A stretch of 64,000 nt of DNA from Phytohabitans suffuscus (GTDB lineage Bacteria > Actinomycetota > Actinomycetes > Mycobacteriales > Micromonosporaceae). Below the pieces are notes generated by a model that saw only the letters and a list, made by a program, of their open reading frames with translations, did not search any database and was not told the DNA's origin. The stretch covers positions 2,664,320 through 2,728,319 of the forward strand of contig NZ_AP022871.1 in NCBI RefSeq assembly GCF_011764565.1. The letters run 5' to 3'. The position numbers and the translations under genes are program-made. Positions within the stretch are counted from its first letter, which is position 1. The number at the start of each line of letters is the position of its first letter. Shown piece by piece: positions 52,317 to 64,000 of this stretch.

Positions 52317-52359
52317 ACGTTGATCGGGAATCTTTCGGCGGCTCAGCGAGCCGCGCTTG

Positions 52360-53274
52360 TCAGCGCTGGACGGGCCGCGTCGGGTCGTCGCCCAGCCCAG
52401 CCGGCGGAGGCGGCGGGAAGCCGGCCGAGGGCTGCTGGCTGGCCGGGTTGATCAGCTGGGTCTGCTGGCCCGGCTCGACCGGCGGCGGCTGCTCGTGGCT
52501 CGGCGGGGTGCTGGTCGGCGCGTGCGGCGGGGCGGCCGGCATGGGCGGCACCGGTGCGGTGGGACCCGCGCCGTAGGGCTGCGCGGGCTGCTGGGCGGGC
52601 TGCTGTGCGGGCTGGCCGTACGCCTGCGGGTAGGCGGCCGTGGGCTGCCCGTACGCCTGGGGGTACCCCTGCTGCGGGTAGCCCGGCTGCTGGCCGTAGC
52701 CCTGCGGGTAACCGGGCTGCTGGCCGTACGCCGGCTGCCCGTACATGCCCGGCTGGGGCTTGGGCTTCGGCACGAAGTAGAGGCCGCGGGCGACCCGGAC
52801 CAGGGCGTACGCCGCGATGGCGAGCACCGCCAGGACGGCGATCCGGCTGAGGAAAGCCTTCAACGCGTTGAAGACGCTGTCGTCGGCGATCTTCACGACG
52901 CCGATGAAGAGGCCGAAGATCACCCCGAAGAAGGCGGCGGCCGCGTACTCGATCAGGGCCACCAGCGTGATGACCTTGGCCCGCCCCAGCGCCGGCTGGA
53001 CGTGGTTGGCCAGGAGCACCGCGAGGAAGGGCAGCCCGATCGTGCCGAGGTTGACGAAGCCGTCGAAGCTGCCGGCGGCGTTTCCGGTGAACGTCTCGAA
53101 GTCACCGGTCGGGATGAGGTTGAGAATCGCCACGAAGAGCAGCACCGCGGTGGCGCCGAGGAGCACCAGGGCGGCTAGCTCGCGCAACGGCTTGGTGAAC
53201 TGGCTGGCCGACGTCCCGTCGCTCGGCGTGGCCTCGGGTTGGGTGGTCAAGGCTCCCCCTGGGGTGGCGGACAA
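52360..53274 (-). CDS. Membrane protein with a C-terminal Pro/Gln/Tyr-rich low-complexity tail
   Basis: Four predicted TM helices, then (GYPQ/YGQP) repeats. Start uncertain (TTG candidates at 53250 or 53274) because the ORF-track N-terminus overlaps cofD antisense. Confidence 0.45.
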
Positions 53275-53370
53275 AGCGGTCTGCGACCGTGAGCCTAGCG
53301 GTCCGGGGGTAGCGCCGCTGCTCTCGCCTGGCCTGCGGGAGGATATGTGGACCTGCGGGAGGATGTGGAC

Positions 53371-54306
53371 ATGCGGATCGTGGTACTGGCCGGAGGCATC
53401 GGCGGGGCTCGCTTCCTGGTCGGCGTGCGCGCGTACGCCCGCGAGGTGGGCGCCGAGGTGACCGCCGTCGTGAATGTCGGGGACGACGCGTCCATGCACG
53501 GGCTCCGGATTTGCCCCGATTTGGATAGTGTCATGTATACGCTCGGTGGCGGCGCCGACCCGGAACGCGGCTGGGGACGGGCCGGCGAGACCTGGACGGT
53601 CAAGGGTGAGCTGGCCGCGTACGGCGCCGAGCCCACGTGGTTCGGCCTCGGCGACAAGGACATCGCCACCCACCTGGTGCGCGGCACGATGCTGACCGCC
53701 GGCTACCCGCTCTCCGCGGTGACCGAGGCGCTCTGCGACCGGTGGCGGCCCGGCGTGCGGCTGCTGCCGGCCAGCGACGACCGGCTGGAGACCCACGCCG
53801 TGGTCGAGGTCAACGGCGAGCAGCGGGCGATCCACTTCCAGGAGTGGTGGGTGCGGTACCGGGGAGACCTGCCGACCGAGCGCTTCGTCTTCGTCGGCGC
53901 GGAGTCGGCCAAGCCGGCGCCCGGCGTGCTCGACGCGCTCGCCGCGGCCGACGTGGTGCTGCTCGCGCCGAGCAACCCGGTGGTGAGCATCGCGCCGATC
54001 CTGGCCGTGCCGGGGCTGCGCGAGGCGGTCGCCACGAGCGCCGCGCCGGTGGTCGGGATCTCCCCCATCATCGGCGGCGCGCCGGTGCGCGGCATGGCCG
54101 ACAAGTGCCTGTCGATCGTGGGCGTGGAGTGCACGGCGGGTGGCGTCGGCGCGCTCTACGGCCCCGACCTCCTCGACGGCTGGCTGGTCGACACGACCGA
54201 CGAGGGCGCGGAGGTGCCGGGCGTGCCGGTCCGCGCTGTTCCACTGTGGATGAACGACGAGCAGGCGACCGCCGCGATGGTGCGCGCCGCGATGGAGCTG
54301 GCGTGA
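53371..54306 (+). CDS. cofD: 2-phospho-L-lactate transferase
   Basis: MRIVVLAGGIGGARFL...; CofD/FbiA pattern; RBS GGGAGGA 7 nt upstream of the ATG at 53371. Confidence 0.8.
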   Translation: MRIVVLAGGIGGARFLVGVRAYAREVGAEVTAVVNVGDDASMHGLRICPDLDSVMYTLGGGADPERGWGRAGETWTVKGELAAYGAEPTWFGLGDKDIATHLVRGTMLTAGYPLSAVTEALCDRWRPGVRLLPASDDRLETHAVVEVNGEQRAIHFQEWWVRYRGDLPTERFVFVGAESAKPAPGVLDALAAADVVLLAPSNPVVSIAPILAVPGLREAVATSAAPVVGISPIIGGAPVRGMADKCLSIVGVECTAGGVGALYGPDLLDGWLVDTTDEGAEVPGVPVRAVPLWMNDEQATAAMVRAAMELA

Positions 54307-55313
54307 GGTTGGAAGTACTGCCGGTCACCGGCATCGGCGACGTCTCCCCCGGTGACGACCTGGCCGCGCTGATCGCGGGTGCCGCACCGTGGCTGCGCGA
54401 CGGCGACGTGCTCGTCGTCACCAGCAAGATCGTGTCCAAAGCGGAGGGTCAGCTTGTCGACGTGCCGGCCGAGGGGCCCGAGCGGGCCGCCGCGCGCGAC
54501 GAGGTACTGGCCGCCGAGACCGCGCGCCGGGTGGCGACCCGCGGCCAGACCCGGATCGTGCAGACCCACCACGGCTTCGTGATGGCCTCCGCCGGGATCG
54601 ACGCCTCCAATGTGGACCGCCAGCGGCTCGTGCTGCTCCCCAAGGACCCGGACGCCTCCGCCCGCGCGCTGCGGGCCGCGCTGCGCGAGCGGCACGGCGT
54701 CGACGTGGCCGTGGTCGTCTCCGACACGATGGGCCGCCCGTGGCGCAACGGCCTCACCGACGTGGCGCTCGGCGCGGCCGGCATCGCGCCGGTCCGCGAC
54801 CACCGGGGCGAGACCGACCCGTACGGCAACGAGCTGCACATCACCCAGATGGCCGTCGTCGACGAGCTGGCCGCCGCGAGCGAGCTGGTCAAGGGCAAGA
54901 CCGACCAGGTGCCGGTCGCGGTCGTGCGCGGCTACCTGTCCCGGCCGGGCGACGACGGCCCGGGGGCGGTCACGCTCGTGCGCGAGGCGGCGGCCGACAT
55001 GTTCTCGCTCGGCACGGCCGAGGCCCGCGCGGCCGGCCTCCGCGAGGCGGCACTGCTCCCGCTCGACCCGCCGGCGGCCGAGGAGCCGGCCGAGCCGGCC
55101 GCGGTGGAGCGCGCGATCGCCGCGGTGGCCGGCGTGGTCGCGCCCGGCACGGTCTTCACCCACGTTCCAGGCGAAGGGGTACGGGCTACGCCGCCCCGGT
55201 CCACGGACGCCGCGACGCTCGTGCGCTTCGGCACCGACCTGCACCGCCTGCGGGCCGCCCTGGCCGCCGAGGGCGCCGCGAGCCTGCCCGTGCGGCCGGT
55301 CCTGCCCGGCTGA
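54303..55313 (+). CDS. cofE: Coenzyme F420-0:L-glutamate ligase (CofE domain) with a short C-terminal tail
   Basis: CofE pattern (VVTSKIVSKAEG...SAGIDASN...); GTGA overlap with cofD; 336 aa. Confidence 0.75.
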   Translation: MRLEVLPVTGIGDVSPGDDLAALIAGAAPWLRDGDVLVVTSKIVSKAEGQLVDVPAEGPERAAARDEVLAAETARRVATRGQTRIVQTHHGFVMASAGIDASNVDRQRLVLLPKDPDASARALRAALRERHGVDVAVVVSDTMGRPWRNGLTDVALGAAGIAPVRDHRGETDPYGNELHITQMAVVDELAAASELVKGKTDQVPVAVVRGYLSRPGDDGPGAVTLVREAAADMFSLGTAEARAAGLREAALLPLDPPAAEEPAEPAAVERAIAAVAGVVAPGTVFTHVPGEGVRATPPRSTDAATLVRFGTDLHRLRAALAAEGAASLPVRPVLPG

Positions 55314-55527: not shown

Positions 55528-57201
55528 GTGACCATCAGCTCGGGCCGCTCTAAGTTCCGATCGACGGTCATCGTGCTGGCAGTAGCGGTGCTCGCGGTCA
55601 CCGGAACGGTAGCTGTGTTGACGAGAACCACCCCCGCGTTCGCCGCGGTGGGTGTCGAGGACGACGGCGCCGACTGCCCGGTGGCCAGCAGCCCCTCGAC
55701 GTCCAGCGCCAGACTGCCCGATCCTTTCCGGAAGATTGACGGTAGTCGCGTCACCTCCAAGGCGGACTGGCGGTGCCGCCGAGCCGAGATCCGGGAGATG
55801 GCCGAGCGGTCCGTATACGGACAGAAGCCACCAAAGCCCGCATCCGTCACGGGCACCGTCTCGACCAGCGGCATCACCGTGAACGTCTCGGACCAGGGCC
55901 GCAGCGCGAGCTTCTCGGCGAGCGTCCAGCTGCCGACGACCGGCTCCGCGCCGTACCCGGCGGTCTTCGTCGTCGGCGGGTTCGGCGCCGACACCGCGAC
56001 CATCCGCAGCTCGGGCGCCGCGGTCATCAGCTACGACCCGCTCGCCGTCGGCCGCGAGGGCACCCCGCGCAACAACAAGCAGGGCGCGTTCTACAGCATC
56101 TACGGCGCGTCGAGCAGCACCGGCATCCTGATGGCCTGGGCCTGGGGCGTGAGCCGCCTCATCGACGTCATCGAGTCGTCCGGCAGCGGCGTCTTCCGGG
56201 CTGACGGGCTGGGCGTCACGGGCTGTTCCCGGTACGGCAAGGGCGCCTTCACGATCGGCGTCTTCGACCAGCGCATCGCCCTGACCATGCCGATCGAGTC
56301 CGGCAGCGGCGGCGCACCCATCTTCCGCGGGATACCTGGCGAGTCCGGCTCCCAGCCGCTGAGCAGCGCGTACAGCGAGCAGCCGTGGCTGGGTGACGCG
56401 TTCAGCTCGTACACCGGCAACCCGAACTCGCTGCCCGTGGACACCCACGAGATGGTCGGCATGATCGCGCCACGCGGCCTTCTCCTCATGGAGAACCCGC
56501 ACATCGACTGGCTGGCCGCGAGGTCCGGCAGCAACGCGGCGCTCGCCGGTGCCGAGATCTACAAGGCGCTCGGCGTGGGCGGCAACATCACGTACTGGTC
56601 CGACGTGTCGGACGGGACGCACTGCGCCGCCCGGAGCGAGTGGCGCACCCCGATCCAGCAGTTCATCCAGAAGTTCCTGCTGAAGACGGGCAACGCGGCC
56701 GGCACGATCCGGATCTCCAGCCGCAAGCAGGGCAACCTGGCCGAGTGGCGGGACTGGACGACCCCGACCCTGACCGACGGGCCGACCACCCCGCCGCCGA
56801 CGACCCCGCCGCCCACCACGCCCCCACCCACGACGCCCCCGCCCACCACACCGCCGCCGACCACCCCGCCGCCCACGACGCCACCGCCCACGACCCCGCC
56901 GCCAGCGGGTAACGGCTGCACGGCGACGGTCTCGCTCAACCAGTGGACGGGCGGGTTCGTGGCGACGATACGGGTGACCGCCGGCTCCGCGGCGATCAGC
57001 GGCTGGACGGTCGCGGCGACCCTGCCGTCGGGCGCCAGCGTCACCAACCACTGGAACGCCAACCGCACCGGCACCAGCGGAAACGTCCAGTTCACCAACG
57101 TCAGCTACAACGGCTCGATCGGCGCCGGCCAGTCGACCGCGTTCGGCTTCCAGGGCACGGGCACCGGCACCGGCCTCACCCCCACCTGCACAGCGCGGTA
57201 A
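55528..57201 (+). CDS. Secreted CE15 glucuronoyl esterase with Pro/Thr linker and C-terminal CBM2
   Basis: Signal peptide; CE15 catalytic motif GCSRYGKGA; (PTTPP)x8 linker; CBM2 (CTATVSLNQWTGGF...W...NVSYNGSIGAGQSTAFGFQG...PTCTA). Confidence 0.75.
   Translation: MTISSGRSKFRSTVIVLAVAVLAVTGTVAVLTRTTPAFAAVGVEDDGADCPVASSPSTSSARLPDPFRKIDGSRVTSKADWRCRRAEIREMAERSVYGQKPPKPASVTGTVSTSGITVNVSDQGRSASFSASVQLPTTGSAPYPAVFVVGGFGADTATIRSSGAAVISYDPLAVGREGTPRNNKQGAFYSIYGASSSTGILMAWAWGVSRLIDVIESSGSGVFRADGLGVTGCSRYGKGAFTIGVFDQRIALTMPIESGSGGAPIFRGIPGESGSQPLSSAYSEQPWLGDAFSSYTGNPNSLPVDTHEMVGMIAPRGLLLMENPHIDWLAARSGSNAALAGAEIYKALGVGGNITYWSDVSDGTHCAARSEWRTPIQQFIQKFLLKTGNAAGTIRISSRKQGNLAEWRDWTTPTLTDGPTTPPPTTPPPTTPPPTTPPPTTPPPTTPPPTTPPPTTPPPAGNGCTATVSLNQWTGGFVATIRVTAGSAAISGWTVAATLPSGASVTNHWNANRTGTSGNVQFTNVSYNGSIGAGQSTAFGFQGTGTGTGLTPTCTAR
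56782..56904. repeat. 15-nt tandem repeat encoding the (PTTPP)8 linker
   Basis: ccgaccaccccgccg-type units repeated about 8 times inside the CE15 gene. Confidence 0.8.
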
Positions 57202-57252
57202 CCAGCCGGGCCTCTCCCCGGGTCTCGCGCGCGCCGCGCGACCCGGGGGCGA

Positions 57253-58299
57253 TCAGCTCAGCCAGACGGCCACCCGGTGGTCCTCGTCGGTGACGTAGAC
57301 GTGCTGGCCGCCGGCGACCGCCAGGCCCTCGACGTTGTGAAAGGGGGCCAGGTCGGCGATGAGCTCGGCGGCCACCTGCCGGCCGCCGTCCGGGGTCGGG
57401 AGGCGGAAGCGGATGTGCCGGCTGGTCACGTCGCCGCCCTCGGGGTGGTCGTCGAGCAGCACCGAGCCCTTGCCCAGCGCGTCGATCGAGCCGACCACCG
57501 CCTCGTACATGCCGTCGCCGACCGCGGTCAGCGCCCGGAACCCGACGAGCGCGCCGGGCGGTGTGACGCCGGTCAGGGCGTAGGCCCGCACGACCTCGGG
57601 CCAGGTCCGCGAGTCGTCGTCGAACATGCCCTCCACGCCCGCCACCTCCACCAGCACCGGCTCGCCCTTTTCGGTCACCGGGAAGCGGAGCCCGAGCAGC
57701 AGCGTGCCGGACGGGGTGAAGGCGGCCGCCTCGACGTTGAGCGGGAGGTCACCGGGGGTGAGGCGGGTGGCCCAGGTCTTCTCCCGCGCCGTGCCTCGGT
57801 TGATGGTCTCCACGATGAACCTGGTCCGCACCCGGTTGCCCGGCGGCAGCGGCGTGATGTCGGCGGCCGCCAGCGCGTCGTTGACCAGCCGGTGCAGCCG
57901 GAACTGGTTGCGGACGATCTGCAGGCCCGCCGCGCCGGGGCGACCCGCGTCGGCCTCCCGGAAGCGGGCGAAGAACGCGCGCTTCGGGCGCAGCGGGCCG
58001 CCCTTGGAGCCGAAGTGCGAGCCGATCACGTACACCCACTCGCCGGAACGGGCGAGCGCCTCGCCATCCTCGGTGCGGCCGGTCTCCACCCCCGCGTCGA
58101 ACGCGGCGTGATGTGCCGTCCAGATGCCGTCCTGGCGCTCCAGCAGCAGCGCCAGGCACTGCTCGACGGTGCCCTCGTCGAGCACCGTCCAGAACGCCCG
58201 CCGCGCGCCGTGCGCCGCCAGCACCTCGGGCGCGAGCACGGGAAGCAGGTCGCTCGCCTCGTTGCATCCGACGGCGAGCTCTACCGAGGTCAGGGTCAT
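57253..58299 (-). CDS. Hypothetical protein
   Basis: 348 aa from the internal ATG at 58299 (MTLTSVELAVG...) chosen instead of the ORF-track start at 58338, giving 13 fewer residues. No motif I can name with confidence. Confidence 0.4.
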   Translation of the reverse strand: MTLTSVELAVGCNEASDLLPVLAPEVLAAHGARRAFWTVLDEGTVEQCLALLLERQDGIWTAHHAAFDAGVETGRTEDGEALARSGEWVYVIGSHFGSKGGPLRPKRAFFARFREADAGRPGAAGLQIVRNQFRLHRLVNDALAAADITPLPPGNRVRTRFIVETINRGTAREKTWATRLTPGDLPLNVEAAAFTPSGTLLLGLRFPVTEKGEPVLVEVAGVEGMFDDDSRTWPEVVRAYALTGVTPPGALVGFRALTAVGDGMYEAVVGSIDALGKGSVLLDDHPEGGDVTSRHIRFRLPTPDGGRQVAAELIADLAPFHNVEGLAVAGGQHVYVTDEDHRVAVWLS

Positions 58300-58353
58300 T
58301 GATCCAGCGTAGGGGCATTCCACTGGTCCGGCCGGCACGGGCCGGTCCGGCCG

Positions 58354-58841
58354 TCACGGGGCGTTGAACGTGTGGCACAGCAGCAACGCCGCGACCGAAG
58401 ACTGCTCGGTGACGACGCCGGCTCGTACGAGATCGAGTGCCGATGACCACCGGGTGAGCCCGACGGAGGGCTTGTCAGGCTCATCCGCGTCGGGACGGCA
58501 GCCCACGCCTTCGACTCTCCCGCGAGCGAGAAACACGAAGATCCTTGCCGCCGAGCTGGCCGCGTCACGTTCGAGCACGGCGACCTGGACCAGGGTGGAC
58601 GCCTGGAATCCGGCCTCCTCGCGCAGCTCTCGCCGAGCCGCGTCGACGGCGTCCTCCCCCTCCTCCAGAGCGCCTCCGGGGAGCTCCCAGTCTCCCGCCC
58701 GATCCCGCACCTGAACTGGCGCACGAGCACGAGATCGCCGGCCTCGGTGACCGCGCAGGCGATCGCGACGTCTGGCCGGCTGACGATGTAGTAGTCGTCC
58801 ATCCGCCGACCCCGCGGATCGACGAAACTGACGTTCTCCAC
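58354..58841 (-). CDS. NUDIX hydrolase; apparent -1 frameshift near 58697
   Basis: N-terminus (...DLVLVRQFR) in frame 58296, then NUDIX box GGALEEGEDAVDAARRELREEAGF in frame 58354. Junction lies at a C3/C4 run. Confidence 0.6.
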
Positions 58842-58925
58842 TGAAAGCCATCGAGATCGCAGGACAGTCTCCGCGGCCTCCGGCAGCCACGGAACCGGCT
58901 CGGTGCCGCCCAGCCCCGGATCAGC

Positions 58926-59810
58926 TCACTGTCCCGTGACATCGCGGCTCACGCTCCACAGTTCCTCGTACTGGCGCGCGAAGAAGGCGAAAAGGTCGTC
59001 GTCACCCGACCCCGATCCCGGCCGGAGGAGCAGGCCCGGCCGGAGGTTGGCCGAAGCCCGGTACGGCAGTATCTCCACCTGTATGCGGCCCTCGCCCGAG
59101 CCCGGATCCACGATGATCACATTAACGGTCGGCGTCGTGTCGTAGGCGCGGACGTCGAATCGGCCGCCCTGGGCCCTCGCCTCTCGGGCCAGCTCGACCA
59201 TCGCGCTCTGACTACGGCGCAGCTCCCGGTGAAACGAGTCCTCTTCACCGAAGTGGCGCCCCAGAGCGAGGTGGATCTGGCGCAGGTTGGTGCCACCGTC
59301 CAGCAGCAGGATCCGCACCGGGCACTCGAGCGACTTCTCGATCAGGAAGGTCCGGTAGTGCTGGGCGAAATGGATCAACGTCGTACCGGCGATGAGGATC
59401 AGGCTGCGCGCCGGCGAAAGAAGCGGCAGCAGCGGAATCTCCCGGCGGGTACTCCGCACCATCGACTCCACCTCGGCGGGAAAGCGCGAGTTTGCCGCTA
59501 TCTGCCGCTCCAGCTCGGCGAACTTCCGGTCGGACCGATGTGCCGCCGCCACTACCGCCCGATGCGTACGTTCGAGGACGCTCTTCCGCTCCAGGATGTT
59601 CGACCCGAAGAACAGTCCCAACGCGAGCAGGGTTATGACCGGCACCCGTGGAGCGAGCCACGGAAGGCGATCCAGGCCGACACTCAGGTCGATCGCGGAA
59701 ATCGCCAGTGCGGTCGCGAGCAGCAGCAGGACGACCGCGTCTGAAACCCGGCGAGCCACGACCTCCCACCGGGAGACCTCGTCCTCAAGAGTGTCTGGAC
59801 CGGAAACCAT
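58926..59810 (-). CDS. Hypothetical membrane-anchored protein (two N-terminal TM helices)
   Basis: 294 aa; no recognisable catalytic motif. Confidence 0.4.
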   Translation of the reverse strand: MVSGPDTLEDEVSRWEVVARRVSDAVVLLLLATALAISAIDLSVGLDRLPWLAPRVPVITLLALGLFFGSNILERKSVLERTHRAVVAAAHRSDRKFAELERQIAANSRFPAEVESMVRSTRREIPLLPLLSPARSLILIAGTTLIHFAQHYRTFLIEKSLECPVRILLLDGGTNLRQIHLALGRHFGEEDSFHRELRRSQSAMVELAREARAQGGRFDVRAYDTTPTVNVIIVDPGSGEGRIQVEILPYRASANLRPGLLLRPGSGSGDDDLFAFFARQYEELWSVSRDVTGQ

Positions 59811-59816
59811 TGCCCG

Positions 59817-60569
59817 TCACCAGAGCCCTGCGCCGAGCGTCACCGGCAGATCGGCACCGCAGATGCCTGACGCGGAATCGCTGGCCAGGAAGGCGACAAC
59901 CGCCGCGACCTCCCCGGTGGTGAGAAGGCGACCCTCAAGTGTGGCCCGACGATAGGCATCGAGCACCGCCTCGTCGCCCACTCCGGTCCTTTCGCCCAAG
60001 CCCGCGGCGGACGATCGCAGCATCGCCGTGTCAACCGGGCCGGGCGCGACAGAGTTGACCGTGACGCCCGTTCCCGCCAGCTCAAGTGCCAAGGTGCGGG
60101 TGAGCACGCCAAGCGCGGCCTTCGACGCGGCGTACGAGCCGTTGTGAGCCTCGGCCAGGCGAGCGGCCTGAGACGAGATATTGATGATCCGTCCACTTCC
60201 CGACGCCAACATGACCCTCAGCACCGCCTTGGTCACCGTAAGCGCGCCGAACACGTTGACCTCGAAGGTGCGGCGCCAACTGTCCAGGTCGGCACCGCCA
60301 ACATCGCCGATCTCGCAAATCCCCGCGTTATTGACCAGAAGGTCGATCCCGCCAAGCGAGTCCACAGTCTGCACCACGACCTGACCCACCTCAGCCGCGT
60401 CCGTGACGTCCATCCGCACGACCCGAAACCGGCGACTCATCGCGGTCGCCCTCGAGTCCATCCTGTGGACCGCCGCGACGACGTCATAACCACCCTCCGC
60501 CAGCGCTTGGCAGGTGGCATTCCCGATGCCGCCCGACGCCCCGGTAACGATGGCGACCCGGCCGCTCAT
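59817..60569 (-). CDS. Short-chain dehydrogenase/reductase (SDR)
   Basis: TGASGGIG Rossmann motif, NNAG, catalytic YxxxK (YAASK); starts 8 nt after the restored stop of the upstream gene. Confidence 0.7.
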   Translation of the reverse strand: MSGRVAIVTGASGGIGNATCQALAEGGYDVVAAVHRMDSRATAMSRRFRVVRMDVTDAAEVGQVVVQTVDSLGGIDLLVNNAGICEIGDVGGADLDSWRRTFEVNVFGALTVTKAVLRVMLASGSGRIINISSQAARLAEAHNGSYAASKAALGVLTRTLALELAGTGVTVNSVAPGPVDTAMLRSSAAGLGERTGVGDEAVLDAYRRATLEGRLLTTGEVAAVVAFLASDSASGICGADLPVTLGAGLW

Positions 60570-60576
60570 GAACTGG

Positions 60577-61670
60577 TCACAAAATGCCCGCAGCGGCACC
60601 GCGCAGCTCTTCGATCGTGACCCCTTCGATACCGACGCGGAACCGATCCCATCTGGCAGCACCACACGCATGCTGCCGCCGCGCACCAGGGCTATCTGCC
60701 GCAGCGCGGCGTCGAACCGGCCGGCGGCGGCAGGGGGCAGCTCGAAGTGGGTGGGCAGCTCGTACCGCGCCAGCACTTCCATGATCCGGTGGCTGTTGTG
60801 GCCCGTGAGGTAGCCACGCGCCTCCGCGATCCGGGTTGCGGCCGCGATTCCGATCGCCACCGCCTCACCATGCTCAATGCCGTGATCCGTCGCGATCTCA
60901 AGCGCGTGGGCCGTCTCGTGTCCGAAGTTCAGAAGACGGTCGAGATCGTTCTCGTAAGGGTCAGGTGTCAGCAGGCGCAGCTTGGCCATCAGCGCTCGTC
61001 CGACTATCTCCTCGATTCTCGCGCTCCCGGCGAAAGCCTCCGACGGTCCGGCCTCCACCATCTCGAACAGTGCCCGGTCGGTGATTGTCGCCACCTTGAT
61101 GATCTCGGCCATCCCGGCCCTGAGGACGTCTCGCGGAGCGTCCTCCACGATCGCCGGATCCACGACGACGGCCGACGGGTGGTAGAACGCGCCGATGAGG
61201 TTCTTTGCCCACGGCGTGTTGACGGCTACCTTCCCACCGACCGCGGCGTCGACCTGCGCCGTCAGCGTGGTGGGCAGGCAGACGTACGGGATGCCACGCA
61301 TGTAGCAGGCCGCCACGAACCCGACCGTGTCCGTCACACTCCCGCCGCCGACAGCGACCAGGGTTGTGGTCCGGTCCGCGCTCAGAGCGTGTAGTCGCTC
61401 GATGAGCTGAGCGAACCCGTCGAGTGTCTTCGCGGCCTCACCCGCACTGATGGTGATCGCGTCGACCCGCTCGAACGCGCCGCCGAGCACCTGATTCACG
61501 ACCGGTCCCAAAACGGCGCCGACCTTGGCGTCGGAGATCCAGATCGCCCTTCGCCCACTCGTCCGTGACGCGAAGATCACGCCGCTGCGGCTCAGGCTGC
61601 CGTGGCCGACCACGATCCGGCAGAGCGCTGGTCTCCCGACATTCAATGTGATGTCGAGGTCGCCGCCCAT
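60577..61670 (-). CDS. 3-dehydroquinate-synthase-like sugar-phosphate cyclase (EEVS/DDGS/DHQS family); apparent -1 frameshift near 60650
   Basis: DHQS-family pattern (GGGSVTD, metal-binding His region HETAHALE...HGEAVAIG). True C-terminus ...EELRGAAAGIL* lies in the neighbouring frame. An alternative TTG start at 61646 overlaps the GHMP kinase stop (TTGA). Confidence 0.7.
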
Positions 61671-62713
61671 TCGACCACCAGCCCTTCCCGTTCGACTGAC
61701 GCGGTCAACGGCTCTACCCCACCTTGACCGAGGATCTCCCGCCATCTGGTGCGCACCCGGTCTCTGCTCTCCGGAGGCACCAGAGCCCAGACGGCACCAC
61801 CGCGCCCGCCGCCCGCGAACCTCGCCGCACCGCCACCGGCCAGCGCCGCTTCACGCAGAGCGCGCGCCGTCTCGGTCATCGTTTCCGGCCAGGCCCGGAT
61901 CCTGATCTGGCACTCCCGGTCGAGCGAGTCATGAGCTCCGGACCAGTCACGCCGCTCAAGGCAACCGGCGAGCTCTCTCGTGGTGGCCGAGGTCGCTTTC
62001 CAGGCCGGCATCGCGCCTTGCCGGACAGAGGCGACCCACTCGGCGGTCATCCCGCCATCGACGTGTCCCTCCGCGGTCAGCGCGACAAGGAGTCGACGGC
62101 CAAGCTCGTCGAGCAGATCCGGATCCGAGAGGCTGAGCCGCCGAAAGGGATGCGCGTAGTCTCTGGAGTTCCAGGTCCACAGTGACGCGCCACCGAACGC
62201 CGCGGCGAGGTGGTCCTGAAACCCGACCGCCGTAGGGGTGACCGCGGCTTCCAGTCGCTGTGCCAGCAGGGCACACGCCGCGAGGTCGGGAAGGCCCGAT
62301 CCGGCGTCGTGATCCGCCCTCGTGACCGCCTCGCAGGCCGCGACGAGGCACAACGACACCGCACCCGAACCGCCGAGCCCCATCCCTCTCGGCAGTACGC
62401 TTCTGATCTGGATCGATACGCCACTGAGCTGGTAGTGATGCAGCGCAGCGGCCGCCAGCCGGTGCGAACCTCCCAGCGGTACCTCGGCGTACGAGCTGAA
62501 CTCACCGGCCTCAGCGCCGTCGTCGACCGACACCCTGCCGTCGTCGCGCGGCGCGACGACGACCTCGACCCGCGGTCCAATGGCGATATTCAGCGTGCAG
62601 GGGTCGTACGGCTGAAGCAGCACCGACAATCCCTGCAGGTCCAAGGCATTGCCGCAGTCCACTCGCAACGGTGCGGTCGCTCGAACCCCCGCGATGGAGC
62701 GGATCCCGCCCAC
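61643..62713 (-). CDS. GHMP-family sugar kinase (HddA-like heptose-7-phosphate kinase candidate)
   Basis: GHMP motif II PRGMGLGGSGAVSLCLVAA and motif III LAGGGAARFAGGGRGGAV. Confidence 0.7.
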   Translation of the reverse strand: MGGIRSIAGVRATAPLRVDCGNALDLQGLSVLLQPYDPCTLNIAIGPRVEVVVAPRDDGRVSVDDGAEAGEFSSYAEVPLGGSHRLAAAALHHYQLSGVSIQIRSVLPRGMGLGGSGAVSLCLVAACEAVTRADHDAGSGLPDLAACALLAQRLEAAVTPTAVGFQDHLAAAFGGASLWTWNSRDYAHPFRRLSLSDPDLLDELGRRLLVALTAEGHVDGGMTAEWVASVRQGAMPAWKATSATTRELAGCLERRDWSGAHDSLDRECQIRIRAWPETMTETARALREAALAGGGAARFAGGGRGGAVWALVPPESRDRVRTRWREILGQGGVEPLTASVEREGLVVEWAATSTSH

Positions 62714-62811
62714 CGTGCCTCCGTCAGCCGTCTCGCCGTGTCATGCAAGATTCGGCCATGGCGAAGACGTCGTCAAGAGTGGTTGGCAGCCCCTGTCAGC
62801 TACCGGACCGA

Positions 62812-63927
62812 TCACAGGTAGCGGGAACCGCCATCCTCCTGGAGGCGGGCCACCAACCGCCGCACGTCCTGCGCCTTGGCGCGGTCACAGACCATCAGGA
62901 CGTCCGGCGTATCGACGATGACCAGGTCGTGGACGCCGAGGGCGGCCACCAACCGGCCCGAGTGGGGCAGCACCACCAAGCGGTCGCTCTCTTCCAGCAG
63001 GACCGGGGTGATGTCACCGCCGCCGGACTCCCCCGCGCCGGCGGCGCGGATCACGACGTTCGCGTCCGGTCCCTCGGCCAGTGCCTCGCCAAGAGTGTGG
63101 AAGTGCCCGACGTCGGTCCAGCCGAAGTCCGACGGCACCGCACCGACGATGCCGGCCTTCGCGGCACCCTCCATCACCGCGAAGTCCACAGAGATCCTCG
63201 GTAGCGTGGGCCAGACCTCACCCAGCACCTCCTGCTGGCGCGGCCCGTCCCAGGCAGCGGCGATCTCCAGCAGCGCGTCGTGCATCTGAGGCTGCTGCCT
63301 CTTCAGCTCGCCCAGGAAGACATCGACCCGCCAGACGAACATCGAGGCGTTCCAGTAGTACCGGCCGGAGCGCACGTACTCTTCCGCCACGTCGGCGGTC
63401 GGCTTCTCCTTGAAGGTCGTGACCCGGCGGATCGGACCCTGGCCGACCGCCTCGTCACACTCCACATAGCCGTATCCGGTCTCGGCGTGGGTGGGGTCGA
63501 TCCCGAAGACGACCAGCAGCCCTTCCTCGGCACCCGCCACCGCCGCCCTGACGCACTCGACGAACCGGCGCTCGTCGCGAACGATGTGGTCGGCCGAGAA
63601 GGCGCCCATGAGCGCGGCCGGGTCCTTCCGGGCGATCAGGGCCGCCGCCAGGCCGATCGCACCGCAGGAGTCGCGACCGAAGGGCTCGACGAGGATGTTT
63701 TCGTCGGGCACCTGCGGGATCTGGCGAGCGACCGCGGGCGCGTGAGCCGTACCGGTGACGATGTAGGTCATGTCGTCACTCGTGACCGGGGCCAGCCGGT
63801 TGACCGTCGCCTGCAGAAGGGTGGCGGGCGTGCCGTCCAAGGCGTGCAGGAACTTCGGGTAGTTGGCCCTCGACAACGGCCATAGCCTCGTGCCGCTTCC
63901 GCCGGCCGGAATCACGATGTGCAGCAT
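62812..63927 (-). CDS. Sugar-1-phosphate guanylyltransferase (ManC/HddC-like)
   Basis: IPAGGSGTRLWPLSR nucleotidyltransferase motif. The ATG at 63927 (MLHIVIPAGG...) is preferred over 63972. Confidence 0.75.
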   Translation of the reverse strand: MLHIVIPAGGSGTRLWPLSRANYPKFLHALDGTPATLLQATVNRLAPVTSDDMTYIVTGTAHAPAVARQIPQVPDENILVEPFGRDSCGAIGLAAALIARKDPAALMGAFSADHIVRDERRFVECVRAAVAGAEEGLLVVFGIDPTHAETGYGYVECDEAVGQGPIRRVTTFKEKPTADVAEEYVRSGRYYWNASMFVWRVDVFLGELKRQQPQMHDALLEIAAAWDGPRQQEVLGEVWPTLPRISVDFAVMEGAAKAGIVGAVPSDFGWTDVGHFHTLGEALAEGPDANVVIRAAGAGESGGGDITPVLLEESDRLVVLPHSGRLVAALGVHDLVIVDTPDVLMVCDRAKAQDVRRLVARLQEDGGSRYL

Positions 63928-64000
63928 CGGGCTATCATGCCCCACCGGTCGAACCCCCAGAATTTCCCCCACAGTGTCCCCGGTCAGGCCGCGGCCCGGC

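What the first reader, a model, noticed from the sequence alone, without database searches (positions are those of the whole stretch)
59817..63972. Partial C7-sugar/cyclitol nucleotide cluster at the window edge
Four consecutive genes run off the window on the minus strand: a DHQS-like sugar-phosphate cyclase (EEVS/DDGS/DHQS family, which use sedoheptulose-7-P), an SDR, a GHMP kinase resembling HddA, and a ManC/HddC-like guanylyltransferase.

This combination fits either GDP-heptose formation or NDP-pseudosugar (C7-cyclitol) biosynthesis, as in aminoglycoside or valienamine-type natural products. The cluster probably continues beyond 64000.
Basis: partly seen in the sequence, partly recalled or inferred. 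Interest (0 to 1): 0.6.

Follow-up and report, generated by a model that had tools for sequence, protein, structure and literature searches.

The report
Rare GDP-carbasugar cassette replacing manC
A rare six-gene cassette in the actinomycete Phytohabitans suffuscus has replaced the ordinary GDP-mannose gene and most likely turns a seven-carbon sugar phosphate into a GDP-activated carbocyclic "pseudo-mannose" by an enzyme combination not described before; its product is unknown.

Summary
In the window the cyclase and SDR read as one 642-aa ORF. This is an artefact of missing G's in homopolymer runs; the deposited assembly and a 99% identical strain have two genes.

The unit extends downstream rather than past 64000. 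It also includes a 294-aa membrane protein with a PLD-like, HKD-less domain and an NDP-sugar-type NUDIX hydrolase (58354-59810).

The sister species P. flavus has the empty site: GT4, manC, then the 348-aa gene. Its flanking proteins are 92.5-98.5% identical, but ManC is only 61% identical. So ManC*, kinase, cyclase, SDR, membrane protein and NUDIX form one cassette that replaced the resident manC. The cassette is very rare: Micromonospora okii, two Kribbella species and a few metagenome fragments.

The cyclase is not AroB. It forms its own clade, and its nearest characterised relatives are 2-epi-valiolone synthases (37-39% identity).

Best reading (about 0.5): a carbocyclic analogue of the GDP-manno-heptose route, yielding a GDP-C7-cyclitol. 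GDP-heptose itself is not supported because GmhA and GmhB are absent. This is a new variant of a known kind.

The parts
62812..63927 (-). ManC* : cassette-type mannose-1-phosphate guanylyltransferase-like NTP transferase, 371 aa (the ORF also extends to a GTG at 63972)
   Evidence: Pfam NTP_transferase plus ManC_GMP_beta-helix. TIGR01479 N-terminal part, 263 bits. PDB 2x5s 1e-55. Only 60.9% identical to P. flavus ManC, while flanking proteins are 92.5-98.5% identical; 68-72% identical to the ManC of the other cassette carriers. Its 90%-identity cluster has one member, against 44 for the adjacent GT4.
62714..62811 (-). 98-nt gap between ManC* and the kinase gene; the only sizeable intergenic gap in the cassette
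   Evidence: Read from the sequence. No Rfam match and no promoter or terminator consensus site here.
61643..62713 (-). HddA-like GHMP kinase, 356 aa; proposed pseudo-anomeric (C1-OH) kinase
   Evidence: GHMP_kinases_N and _C. Motif 'GLGGSG' and the C-terminal Gly-rich motif are conserved. The profile best matches heptose-phosphate kinases 3k85, 4n3o and 4usk. Close homologues occur only in cassette carriers.
60566..61670 (-). Sugar-phosphate cyclase (DHQS-like, novel clade), 364-368 aa. Its reading frame is broken in the window by a missing G at 60620 (and at 60586 relative to L001). Its start overlaps the kinase stop by 28 nt.
   Evidence: DHQ_synthase plus DHQS_C. Below the aroB cutoff. Metal and catalytic residues are kept; R264D, T272E and K/R356A/M are changed. 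The clade has 100% bootstrap support; nearest characterised enzymes are EVS at 37-39% identity. Indels mapped.
59817..60569 (-). Classical SDR oxidoreductase, 250 aa; proposed ketoreductase. Present in the P. suffuscus, M. okii and metagenome L092 versions; absent from the Kribbella versions.
   Evidence: adh_short 4.9e-53. Separate gene in L001 and L002. M. okii orthologue 50% identical. L092 orthologue 41% identical. No orthologue in the Kribbella loci.
58926..59810 (-). 294-aa membrane protein: long N-terminal helices with two hydrophobic stretches, plus a C-terminal PLD-fold, HKD-less (DUF5919-like) domain. Function unknown. It is among the best-conserved cassette proteins.
   Evidence: Only 5 homologue clusters among 5.8 billion proteins, all in cassettes. 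AF2 model pLDDT 64.7. Foldseek hits SauUSI, FAM83, F13, PssA and BfiI. Weak DUF5919 match. The motif column reads T-x-N...D...SAN in place of HxK...D...GSxN. 70% identical between P. suffuscus and M. okii.
58354..58942 (-). NUDIX hydrolase of the ADP-ribose / NDP-sugar pyrophosphatase type, 196 aa. Broken in the window by missing bases at 58913 and 58693. Overlaps the preceding gene by 17 nt.
   Evidence: Pfam NUDIX 2.5e-16 on the corrected sequence. NudE and YffH/AdpP-family NCBIfam hits. Best PDB matches are ADP-ribose / ADP-sugar pyrophosphatases. Orthologues in L092 and a second contig carry the NDPSase_N domain. Absent from the P. flavus empty site.
63928..63983 (.). Left boundary of the cassette (GT4-ManC* intergenic region)
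   Evidence: Nucleotide identity to P. flavus falls from about 0.92 to 0.66 at the GT4 stop. The same step is seen against M. okii, from 0.88 to about 0.7.
58300..58353 (.). Right boundary of the cassette (between NUDIX and the core 348-aa gene)
   Evidence: In P. flavus, ManC is followed directly by the 348-aa gene, which is 92.5% identical. No flanking direct or inverted repeats of note.

Best explanation
The feature is a six-gene cassette: ManC*, HddA-like GHMP kinase, novel sugar-phosphate cyclase, SDR, membrane PLD-fold protein and NDP-sugar-type NUDIX. It replaced the resident manC of Phytohabitans suffuscus.

It most likely encodes a short pathway to a GDP-activated carbocyclic sugar. 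This would be a carbocyclic counterpart of the GDP-D-glycero-alpha-D-manno-heptose route. The proposed steps are all inferred.

(1) The cyclase converts a sugar phosphate, most likely sedoheptulose 7-phosphate, into a 2-epi-valiolone-like ketocyclitol and eliminates the phosphate. By the stereochemistry of sedoheptulose, such products are manno-configured at C2-C4.
(2) The SDR reduces the C1 ketone.
(3) The HddA-like kinase phosphorylates the pseudo-anomeric C1-OH.
(4) ManC* couples the cyclitol 1-phosphate to GTP, giving a GDP-cyclitol ('GDP-pseudo-mannose/heptose').
(5) The NUDIX enzyme hydrolyses or proof-reads the NDP-cyclitol.

The role of the membrane protein is unknown. It may sense the product or hand it over at the membrane.

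What is shown: the gene content, the cassette boundaries, the co-inheritance of the genes, the family assignments and purifying selection. What is inferred: the substrate, the order of steps and the product.
For: Unit and co-inheritance:
- The empty site in P. flavus, with flanking proteins 92.5-98.5% identical and ManC 60.9%, shows that ManC* through NUDIX are one inserted or replaced block.
- The same block lies at the manC-fbiB site in M. okii and in two Kribbella species.
- Cassette ManCs are closer to each other (68-72%) than to P. flavus ManC (61-64%).
- A distant version (59% G+C) has the order cyclase 3' end - SDR - membrane protein - NUDIX - ManC. A second contig repeats the order membrane protein - NUDIX - NTP transferase. 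The linkage therefore survives rearrangement.
- Overlapping or near-abutting reading frames from the kinase to NUDIX indicate one operon.
- Between two strains there are 27 synonymous and 7 non-synonymous differences, which indicates purifying selection.

Enzymology:
- The cyclase keeps all metal and catalytic residues but has R264D, T272E and K356A/M. It is below the aroB cutoff. It sits in the group holding the sedoheptulose-7-P cyclases EVS, EEVS and DDGS (80% bootstrap). It is nearest to EVS.
- Related EVS-like cyclases sit in clusters with NTP transferases, kinases, epimerases and GT20/GT4 transferases. This is the cyclitol to cyclitol-P to NDP-cyclitol logic.
- The kinase's closest solved relatives are C1-OH kinases of manno-heptose phosphates.
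- ManC* is a full-length mannose-1-P guanylyltransferase homologue.
- There is precedent for cyclitol 1-phosphate going to a GDP-cyclitol with GTP preferred: AcbU/AcbR and VldB (PMC9200736).
- The cassette holds no 2-epimerase. That fits a pathway that stays in the manno series and uses manno-type enzymes (inference).
Against: - No enzyme activity has been tested.
- The cyclase's substrate is unknown. Three fingerprint positions differ from EVS, and identity to EVS is only 37-39%.
- The Kribbella cassettes lack the SDR, so either the reduction is done elsewhere or the kinase acts on another hydroxyl.
- The cassette has no glycosyltransferase or pseudoglycosyltransferase, so the fate of a GDP-cyclitol is unexplained.
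- The membrane protein lacks the HKD catalytic residues.
- ManC* occupies the ancestral manC position. It may simply be a divergent housekeeping GDP-mannose enzyme carried along by recombination. I could not check whether the genome has another manC.
- The kinase scores only 17 bits against the HddA equivalog model, whose cutoff is 600.
Confidence: 0.5

Rival explanations
1. The cyclase, SDR and kinase make a free or phosphorylated cyclitol, for example an osmolyte, signal or inhibitor. ManC* is only the organism's GDP-mannose enzyme, swept along because manC served as a homologous anchor when the island recombined in.
For: ManC* sits at the ancestral manC position next to fbiAB and whiB. A 98-nt gap separates it from the tightly packed kinase-to-NUDIX genes. 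Its GC3 (0.86-0.90) lies between that of the flanks (0.93-0.99) and that of the island genes (0.78-0.85). No att-like repeats or integrase are present, which fits homologous replacement.
Against: In the distant versions the ManC-type gene is again adjacent, but on the other side of the module, after NUDIX. That is hard to explain by hitch-hiking at one chromosomal site. Cassette ManCs form their own similarity group. An NDP-sugar-type NUDIX in the cassette implies a nucleotide-linked intermediate.
Confidence: 0.2
2. A variant shikimate/quinate-type route: the cyclase is a DHQS paralogue, the SDR acts as a quinate/shikimate dehydrogenase, and the GHMP kinase acts as an archaeal-type shikimate kinase.
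For: The best NCBIfam model for the cyclase is aroB, at 285.6 bits. The best solved hits are DHQS (3okf, 1e-53). The kinase has a weak hit to the archaeal GHMP shikimate kinase TIGR01920 (2.5e-06).
Against: The score is below the aroB cutoff of 305. Every DHQS and aminoDHQS in the alignment has Arg at position 264 (A. nidulans numbering); here it is Asp, and K356 is lost. The clade falls outside DHQS with 80% bootstrap support. With a family profile, the kinase matches heptose kinases far better than any other GHMP class. ManC* and NUDIX would have no role.
Confidence: 0.07
3. A true GDP-heptose (GDP-D-glycero-alpha-D-manno-heptose) pathway for a cell-surface glycan.
For: The kinase is HddA-like, the guanylyltransferase is ManC/HddC-like, and a GT4 lies upstream.
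Against: No GmhA isomerase or GmhB phosphatase is present in or near any version of the cassette. A cyclase that eliminates the phosphate takes their place. The GT4 is a core gene also present in P. flavus, which lacks the cassette, and it is absent from the Kribbella loci.
Confidence: 0.03
4. The cassette feeds a cyclitol phosphate into the cell envelope. The membrane PLD-fold protein would transfer a cyclitol-phosphate head group from the GDP-cyclitol to a lipid or glycan, by analogy with phosphatidylserine synthase using CDP-diacylglycerol.
For: The membrane protein's C-terminal domain has a PLD-like fold; matches include PssA (3hsi, 8yr6). It has an N-terminal membrane anchor. It is among the most conserved cassette proteins and occurs nowhere else.
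Against: The HKD His and Lys are replaced by Thr and Asn, and the wider DUF5919-like family also lacks them. The model has only moderate confidence (pLDDT 64.7). In Pfam, DUF5919 is a domain of unknown function; my recollection, not checked here, is that it often accompanies HTH regulators, which would suggest ligand binding rather than catalysis.
Confidence: 0.15

Closest known systems
GDP-valienol branch of acarbose and validamycin biosynthesis (AcbU kinase, AcbJ phosphatase, AcbR/VldB guanylyltransferase; PMC9200736)
   Same: The logic is the same: sugar-phosphate cyclase product, then cyclitol 1-phosphate, then GDP-cyclitol, with GTP as the preferred nucleotide. The organisms are actinomycetes.
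   Different: - The kinase here is an HddA-like GHMP enzyme. ValC is described as ROK-like in PMC9200736. From my own knowledge, not checked here, AcbM is also of that sugar-kinase type.
- The transferase here is a full-length ManC type. From my own knowledge, not checked here, VldB and AcbR are glucose-1-P adenylyltransferase-like.
- There is no 2-epimerase, dehydratase, aminotransferase or pseudoglycosyltransferase.
- The cyclase is neither EEVS nor its close kin (27-30% identity).
- The cassette has only 5-6 genes and carries a NUDIX and a PLD-fold membrane protein.
2-epi-valiolone synthase (EVS; Amir_2000, Staur_3140; sequences from eLife 2015 e05919 source data)
   Same: These are the nearest characterised enzymes (37-39% identity). 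The 'DP[YF]E.DL.R' motif is shared. N268, H275 and K250 are kept as in EVS and DHQS.
   Different: The cassette cyclase forms a separate clade with 100% support, not nested in either EVS group. R264 is Asp (as in DDGS), T272 is Glu (seen here only in this clade and in P0009), and R356 is Ala/Met.
GDP-D-glycero-alpha-D-manno-heptose pathway (GmhA, HddA, GmhB, HddC)
   Same: It starts from sedoheptulose 7-P. It uses an HddA-type C1 kinase and a GDP-forming nucleotidyltransferase acting on manno-configured substrates.
   Different: GmhA and GmhB are absent. A phosphate-eliminating cyclase replaces the isomerase, and this also removes the need for a 7-phosphatase. The transferase is the long ManC type rather than short HddC (my own knowledge for HddC length). 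The product would be a carbasugar, not a heptose.
Uncharacterised EVS-like cyclitol clusters
   Same: A cyclase is clustered with an NTP transferase, one or more kinases and SDR/epimerase genes.
   Different: Those clusters use ROK, BcrAD/BadFG or APH kinases and short NTP transferases. They also carry GT20 or GT4 transferases, methyltransferases and AP_endonuc_2 enzymes. None has the GHMP kinase, the PLD-fold membrane protein or the NUDIX.
DUF5919 (Pfam PF19319) / PLD-fold superfamily
   Same: The C-terminal domain of the 294-aa protein gives weak DUF5919 matches and a PLD-like predicted fold.
   Different: The match is below Pfam's gathering score (18.8 against 23.5). The HKD motif is missing. 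The protein has an N-terminal membrane anchor. Close relatives occur only in this cassette.

Membership tests
Sugar-phosphate cyclase (DHQS-like) superfamily | DHQ_synthase N- and C-terminal domains | tested here: met
   PF01761 1e-38 and PF24621 5.9e-31.
Sugar-phosphate cyclase (DHQS-like) superfamily | Metal ligands E194, H271, H287 and catalytic/phosphate residues R130, D146, K152, N162, K197 (A. nidulans numbering) | tested here: met
   All are conserved in P0001-P0006 in the alignment with reference enzymes.
True 3-dehydroquinate synthase (AroB) | Score at or above the curated cutoff of the aroB equivalog model TIGR01357 | tested here: not met
   285.6 bits against a cutoff of 305.
True 3-dehydroquinate synthase (AroB) | Arg264 and Lys356, which are invariant in all DHQS/aDHQS references used | tested here: not met
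   Asp at 264 and Ala/Met at 356 throughout the clade.
True 3-dehydroquinate synthase (AroB) | Groups phylogenetically with DHQS | tested here: not met
   Falls in the non-DHQS group (80% NJ bootstrap). Identity to DHQS is 28-34%. The tree is NJ only, not ML.
2-epi-valiolone synthase (EVS) | Groups with Amir_2000 or Staur_3140 and shares their active-site pattern (R264, R265, N268, T/S272, H275, R356) | tested here: not met
   Forms its own clade (100% bootstrap) and differs at positions 264, 272 and 356. It is the nearest characterised family but this protein is not a member.
2-epi-valiolone synthase (EVS) | Converts sedoheptulose 7-P to 2-epi-valiolone | not testable with these tools
   Needs an enzyme assay.
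EEVS / DDGS | Asp (EEVS) or Ala (DDGS) at position 268, Pro at 275, Met at 250 | tested here: not met
   N268, H275 and K250 are retained. Only D264 is shared with DDGS.
GDP-D-glycero-alpha-D-manno-heptose pathway | GmhA isomerase and GmhB phosphatase alongside HddA and HddC | tested here: not met
   Neither appears among the called genes of the loci from P. suffuscus, M. okii, Kribbella or L092.
GDP-D-glycero-alpha-D-manno-heptose pathway | HddA equivalog (NF049969) | tested here: not met
   17.2 bits against a cutoff of 600. The resemblance is at subfamily and structure level only.
GHMP kinase superfamily | GHMP N- and C-terminal domains with the Pro-x3-Gly-Leu-Gly-Ser-Ser-Ala-type motif II and the Gly-rich motif III | tested here: met
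   PF00288 3.2e-09 and PF08544 2.3e-04. 'GLGGSG' and 'GGG.GGAVWAL' are conserved.
Mannose-1-phosphate guanylyltransferase (ManC) | NTP_transferase domain plus ManC beta-helix domain; full-length similarity to a solved GMP | tested here: met
   2x5s 1e-55 over residues 4-362. Sugar specificity was not tested.
Mannose-1-phosphate guanylyltransferase (ManC) | Orthology with the vertically inherited manC of the Micromonosporaceae | tested here: not met
   60.9% identical to P. flavus ManC, against 92.5-98.5% for neighbouring proteins. It is the sole member of its 90%-identity cluster.
C7N-aminocyclitol / pseudo-oligosaccharide gene clusters (acarbose, validamycin type) | Cyclase plus cyclitol kinase plus NDP transferase | tested here: met
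   All three functions are represented, but by different protein families.
C7N-aminocyclitol / pseudo-oligosaccharide gene clusters (acarbose, validamycin type) | Pseudoglycosyltransferase, aminotransferase, 2-epimerase | tested here: not met
   None is present in the cassette or its flanks.
PLD superfamily (catalytic) | HxK(x)4D...GSxN motif | tested here: not met
   The motif reads T-x-N-x4-D...(A/G)SAN. His and Lys are absent here and in 40 distant relatives. Only the fold is PLD-like.
NUDIX NDP-sugar / ADP-ribose pyrophosphatases | NUDIX box, and best similarity to ADPRase / YffH-type enzymes | tested here: met
   PF00293 2.5e-16. NudE and TIGR00052 hits are below their cutoffs. The best PDB hits are ADP-ribose / ADP-sugar pyrophosphatases. 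Substrate was not tested.

The most novel reading that the evidence does not exclude
The cassette makes a previously unknown metabolite, a GDP-linked manno-configured C7 carbasugar. It would do so by a route new to cyclitol biochemistry: an HddA-type GHMP kinase, a ManC-type guanylyltransferase and a new cyclase class. Having displaced the housekeeping manC, the cassette would feed this non-hydrolysable mannose mimic into GDP-mannose-dependent envelope glycosylation or into its regulation. The PLD-fold membrane protein would act as a dedicated acceptor-side or sensing component.
Probability: 0.2. Interest if true: 0.75.

Novelty: new variant of a known kind. Interest (0 to 1): 0.55.

Why it matters
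Sugar-phosphate cyclases start the pathways to acarbose, validamycin, aminoglycosides, gadusol and mycosporines. Each new clade so far has brought a new product or new chemistry.

This locus offers three things. It has a cyclase clade with a distinct active-site pattern. It pairs that cyclase with a kinase and a nucleotidyltransferase from the manno-heptose/mannose world. And it is compact enough, at 5-6 genes, to express as one piece. A clean natural control exists, because P. flavus has the empty site.

If the product is a GDP-carbamannose analogue, it would be a natural, glycosidase-resistant mimic of the donor used for essential actinobacterial mannoglycolipids. That would interest both natural-product discovery and inhibitor design.

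The locus also shows a metabolic island replacing a core gene in place at the conserved manC-fbiAB site. The same site is occupied in distantly related actinomycetes: Micromonosporaceae (P. suffuscus, M. okii) and Kribbella.

Tried and rejected
- The 642-aa cyclase-SDR 'fusion' was taken seriously at first, because epimerase-cyclase fusions such as P0018, P0030 and P0040 exist. It was rejected: it results from missing G's in homopolymer runs.
- The frameshifted NUDIX gene, which looks like a pseudogene in the window, has the same cause.
- GmhA, GmhB or extra cyclitol genes beyond 64000: not there.
- An orthologous SDR near the Kribbella cassette: the only nearby SDR is 33% identical, which is generic similarity.
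- Anti-phage defence: PADLOC gave only a generic NUDIX hit.
- RNA elements, promoters and terminators in 57000-64000: nothing above chance.
- att-like flanking repeats or an integrase in P. suffuscus: none, only chance-level short repeats.
- The GHMP kinases of Desulfobacterales (28-36% identity, more than 200 loci): in the one locus I examined (L005/L006) the gene follows recO, with no cyclase nearby. They appear to be a different system.
- Literature: no held paper links a GHMP kinase with valiolone-type cyclitols. Kean 2014, Wu 2007 and Asamizu 2012 were not available. The active-site comparison was therefore rebuilt from reference sequences in the eLife 2015 source data.
- A first Biopython distance run timed out. 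It was redone with a hand-written Kimura-corrected NJ and 200 bootstraps.
- More context for distant relatives of the membrane protein: the contigs were too short.

Full report
**What is in the sequence**

The window is high-G+C actinomycete DNA. On the minus strand between 59817 and 63972 there are three long ORFs.

- 62812-63972 is a ManC-type nucleotidyltransferase. It has NTP_transferase (1.3e-42) and ManC_GMP_beta-helix (4.5e-14) domains.
- 61643-62713 is a GHMP kinase.
- 59817-61745 is a 642-aa ORF. Its N-terminal part is DHQS-like (DHQ_synthase 1e-38, DHQS_C 5.9e-31). Its C-terminal part is a classical SDR (adh_short 4.9e-53).

**The cyclase-SDR fusion is an artefact**

A 99%-identical protein in the public collection (P0001) is a stand-alone 368-aa cyclase. 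On its contig (L001) a 250-aa SDR gene starts at an ATGA overlap with the cyclase stop.

The window matches NCBI assembly GCA_054778935.1 (contig BAAGZC010000002.1) without a single mismatch over 12.4 kb. It differs only by five missing bases. All five lie in G or C homopolymer runs, at window positions 60620, 58913, 58693, 58311 and 57215. L001 has a further extra G at 60586.

Restoring them has three effects.
- The cyclase and SDR become separate genes (364/368 aa and 260/250 aa).
- The cyclase gets a C-terminus ('GVTIEEL') that matches the Kribbella homologues ('VTIEDL').
- The NUDIX gene downstream is repaired to 196 aa.

fbiC, further along the window, is also split between two frames. 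The window sequence therefore seems to carry systematic homopolymer under-calls.

**Organism and extent of the unit**

Exact-sequence look-up names the organism as Phytohabitans suffuscus, a member of the Micromonosporaceae. The proteins are BCB85094-BCB85098, on a 10.15-Mb record.

Extending the window (L002, L003) shows the gene order GT4 - ManC - GHMP kinase - cyclase - SDR - 294-aa protein - NUDIX - 348-aa protein. After these come, on the other strand, a CE15 esterase, fbiB and cofD, followed by fbiC.

From the kinase to NUDIX the genes overlap or nearly abut:
- kinase/cyclase: 28-nt overlap;
- cyclase/SDR: 4-nt overlap in L001 (23 nt as annotated in L002);
- SDR/294-aa gene: 6-nt gap;
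- 294-aa gene/NUDIX: 17-nt overlap.

A 98-nt gap separates ManC from the kinase.

**The empty site**

The decisive comparison is with the sister species P. flavus. Its locus reads GT4 - ManC (366 aa) - 348-aa protein - CE15 - fbiB - cofD.

Eight flanking proteins are 92.5-98.5% identical between the two species, but ManC is only 60.9% identical. Nucleotide identity drops from about 0.92 to 0.66 exactly at the GT4 stop codon.

The 90%-identity cluster of the GT4 has 44 members from Phytohabitans, Micromonospora and Asanoa. The cluster of this ManC has one member.

Hence the inserted segment is not just kinase-to-NUDIX. It is a block of six genes, from ManC* through NUDIX, that replaced the resident manC. 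I found no integrase and no flanking repeats, which fits replacement by homologous recombination. That last point is inference.

**Distribution**

The kinase has only a handful of close homologues among 5.8 billion proteins. The 294-aa protein has five clusters in all.

Among 185,579 species genomes the close kinase occurs in Micromonospora okii TP-A0468, Kribbella catacumbae and Kribbella sp. CA-294648. One metagenome contig adds a fragment.

In all three genomes the block is ManC - kinase - cyclase - (SDR) - 294-aa protein - NUDIX. It sits at the same chromosomal place, between manC's upstream neighbour and fbiB/cofD/whiB. The SDR is present in M. okii and absent in both Kribbella species.

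Cassette genes have lower third-position G+C (0.78-0.86) than the flanking genes (0.93-0.99), most clearly in M. okii.

Cassette proteins of P. suffuscus and M. okii are 49-72% identical, against 91% for the adjacent GT4. They are no closer to each other than either is to Kribbella. The three cassette ManCs are 68-72% identical to one another and 61-64% identical to P. flavus ManC.

A much more distant version lies on a 59% G+C metagenome contig (L092). Its order is cyclase 3' end - SDR - 294-aa homologue - NUDIX - ManC-type gene, with 37-43% identity. A second contig repeats the order 294-aa homologue - NUDIX - NTP transferase. The linkage of the ManC-type gene with the other components thus survives a change of gene order. 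That argues for function rather than hitch-hiking.

Between two P. suffuscus-like strains the cassette shows 27 synonymous and 7 non-synonymous differences, which indicates purifying selection.

**The cyclase**

It scores 285.6 bits on the aroB equivalog model, below the cutoff of 305.

I aligned it with reference sugar-phosphate cyclases taken from the source data of eLife 2015 e05919. It keeps the metal ligands (E194, H271, H287) and also R130, D146, K152, N162, K197, K250, N268 and H275 (A. nidulans numbering).

It has Asp in place of Arg264, Glu in place of Thr/Ser272, and Ala/Met in place of Lys/Arg356.
- All DHQS and aminoDHQS references have R264 and K356.
- Among the characterised enzymes, D264 is shared only with DDGS.
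- E272 is seen only in this clade and in P0009.

In a neighbour-joining tree (200 bootstraps) the six close sequences form a 100%-supported clade. That clade lies inside a group (80% support) holding EVS, EEVS, DDGS and an EboD-like protein, apart from DHQS. The nearest characterised enzymes by identity are 2-epi-valiolone synthases at 37-39%. DHQS is at 28-34% and EEVS/DDGS at 27-30%.

The tree is NJ only, and deeper nodes are weakly supported.

Two related EVS-like cyclases sit in clusters with NTP transferases, ROK, BcrAD or APH kinases, epimerases and GT20/GT4 transferases. This is the familiar cyclitol to cyclitol phosphate to NDP-cyclitol layout.

**The other proteins**

A profile of the kinase family best matches solved D-glycero-D-manno-heptose phosphate kinases over almost its full length: 3k85 (2.4e-17), 4n3o, and WcbL 4usk. 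Mevalonate kinases, galactokinases and fucokinases score lower. It fails the HddA equivalog model by a wide margin, at 17 bits against 600.

ManC* aligns end to end with Thermotoga mannose-1-P guanylyltransferase (2x5s, 1e-55).

The NUDIX protein is closest to ADP-ribose / ADP-sugar pyrophosphatases and to NudE. Its distant orthologues carry Pfam's NDPSase_N domain.

The 294-aa protein has long N-terminal helices with two hydrophobic stretches. Its C-terminal domain has a predicted structure of only moderate confidence (mean pLDDT 64.7). That structure matches PLD-superfamily folds: SauUSI, FAM83/BJ-TSA-9, vaccinia F13, phosphatidylserine synthase and BfiI. It gives sub-threshold DUF5919 matches.

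Where the HKD motif should be, it reads T-x-N-x4-D...SAN. About 40 distant relatives found by an exhaustive HMM search also lack the His and Lys. Its function is open.

**How it most likely works (inferred)**

Sedoheptulose is D-altro-heptulose. In the DHQS-type mechanism C7 attacks C2, and C5, C4 and C3 become C2, C3 and C4 of the cyclitol. This gives the manno arrangement, which is why the products are called '2-epi' valiolones. This is established stereochemistry, applied here by me.

The cassette holds no 2-epimerase. Its kinase and nucleotidyltransferase both descend from enzymes that act on alpha-manno-configured substrates.

The simplest scheme is therefore:
1. the cyclase makes a 2-epi-valiolone-like ketocyclitol and eliminates the phosphate, so no GmhB-type phosphatase is needed;
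2. the SDR reduces C1;
3. the HddA-like kinase makes the 1-phosphate;
4. ManC* makes the GDP-cyclitol.

The last two steps have experimental precedent in acarbose and validamycin biosynthesis. There AcbU makes valienol 1-phosphates, and AcbR/VldB make GDP-valienol with GTP preferred (PMC9200736).

The NUDIX enzyme would hydrolyse or police the NDP-cyclitol.

Several things remain unexplained: what accepts the cyclitol, what the membrane protein does, how Kribbella manages without the SDR, and whether ManC* also supplies GDP-mannose.

**Rivals**

- ManC* could be only a housekeeping enzyme dragged along with the island. This remains possible (about 0.2) but is weakened by the rearranged distant versions.
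- A shikimate-like route is disfavoured by the active-site changes, the tree and the kinase's affinities.
- A true GDP-heptose pathway is disfavoured by the absence of GmhA and GmhB.
- A phospho-cyclitol transfer to the envelope by the PLD-fold protein is a variant of the main model. The missing catalytic motif counts against it.

**Novelty**

I found no paper in the held library linking a GHMP kinase or a ManC-type enzyme to valiolone-type cyclitols. The recent review of cyclitol classes lists DHQS, aDHQS, DOIS, DEIS, EEVS, EVS and DDGS (PMC12904256).

This cassette follows the known 'NDP-pseudosugar' logic. It uses a new cyclase clade, different kinase and transferase families and two unexplained accessory proteins, and it has an unusual genomic history. 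I rate it a new variant of a known kind, of moderate to good interest (0.55). It is readily testable because the cassette is small and a natural empty-site control exists.

Noticed in passing
window 60620, 60586, 58913, 58693, 58311, 57215; also about 50787-50871: The window lacks single bases in G/C homopolymer runs relative to the deposited assembly of the same strain (0 mismatches and 5 gaps in 12.4 kb) and to a 99% identical strain. This falsely fuses or breaks the cyclase/SDR, NUDIX and 348-aa genes. fbiC is likewise split between two frames. Other ORF calls in this window may be affected in the same way.
   Followed up: partly
window 49756-55313: F420 biosynthesis genes are present: fbiC (FO synthase, split by a frameshift), cofD/fbiA (53347-54306) and fbiB/cofE (about 54300-55313). 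The manC-fbiAB-whiB neighbourhood is shared between the Micromonosporaceae loci and Kribbella, and it is the site where the cassette sits in every genome that carries it.
   Followed up: partly
window 55528-57201 (+): A secreted CE15 glucuronoyl esterase (GCE_fung 2.3e-76) is joined by a (TTPPP)n linker to a CBM2 cellulose-binding domain. It is conserved in P. flavus.
   Followed up: no
window 57253-58299 (-): A 348-aa conserved hypothetical protein lies directly downstream of the cassette. It is a core gene (92.5% identical in P. flavus), has no Pfam family, and gives only faint NHL / phytase-like (beta-propeller) hints.
   Followed up: no
loci L005, L006 and L010-L086: More than 200 Desulfobacterales and related genomes encode a GHMP kinase 28-36% identical to the cassette kinase. 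In the one locus examined (L005/L006) it lies directly after recO and before glyQ/glyS, with no cyclase nearby. This looks like an uncharacterised, widespread kinase family.
   Followed up: partly
L092 (JGI metagenome 3300056906, 9.9-kb contig, 59% G+C): A distant, rearranged version of the module (cyclase end - SDR - membrane protein - NUDIX - ManC-type gene) is followed by topoisomerase I and a tyrosine recombinase. The part that would hold the kinase is cut off by the contig end.
   Followed up: partly
P0018, P0030, P0040 (locus L088): Genuine fusions of an N-terminal NAD-dependent epimerase/dehydratase with an EVS-like cyclase (720-743 aa) occur in clusters with a ROK kinase, an NTP transferase, a GT4, a methyltransferase and a GH4. 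These look like another uncharacterised cyclitol pathway.
   Followed up: no
L008 14312-14950 (M. okii): M. okii carries a second NUDIX gene on the opposite strand right after the cassette NUDIX. Its third-position G+C (0.93) is like that of the core genes, whereas the cassette NUDIX has 0.85.
   Followed up: no
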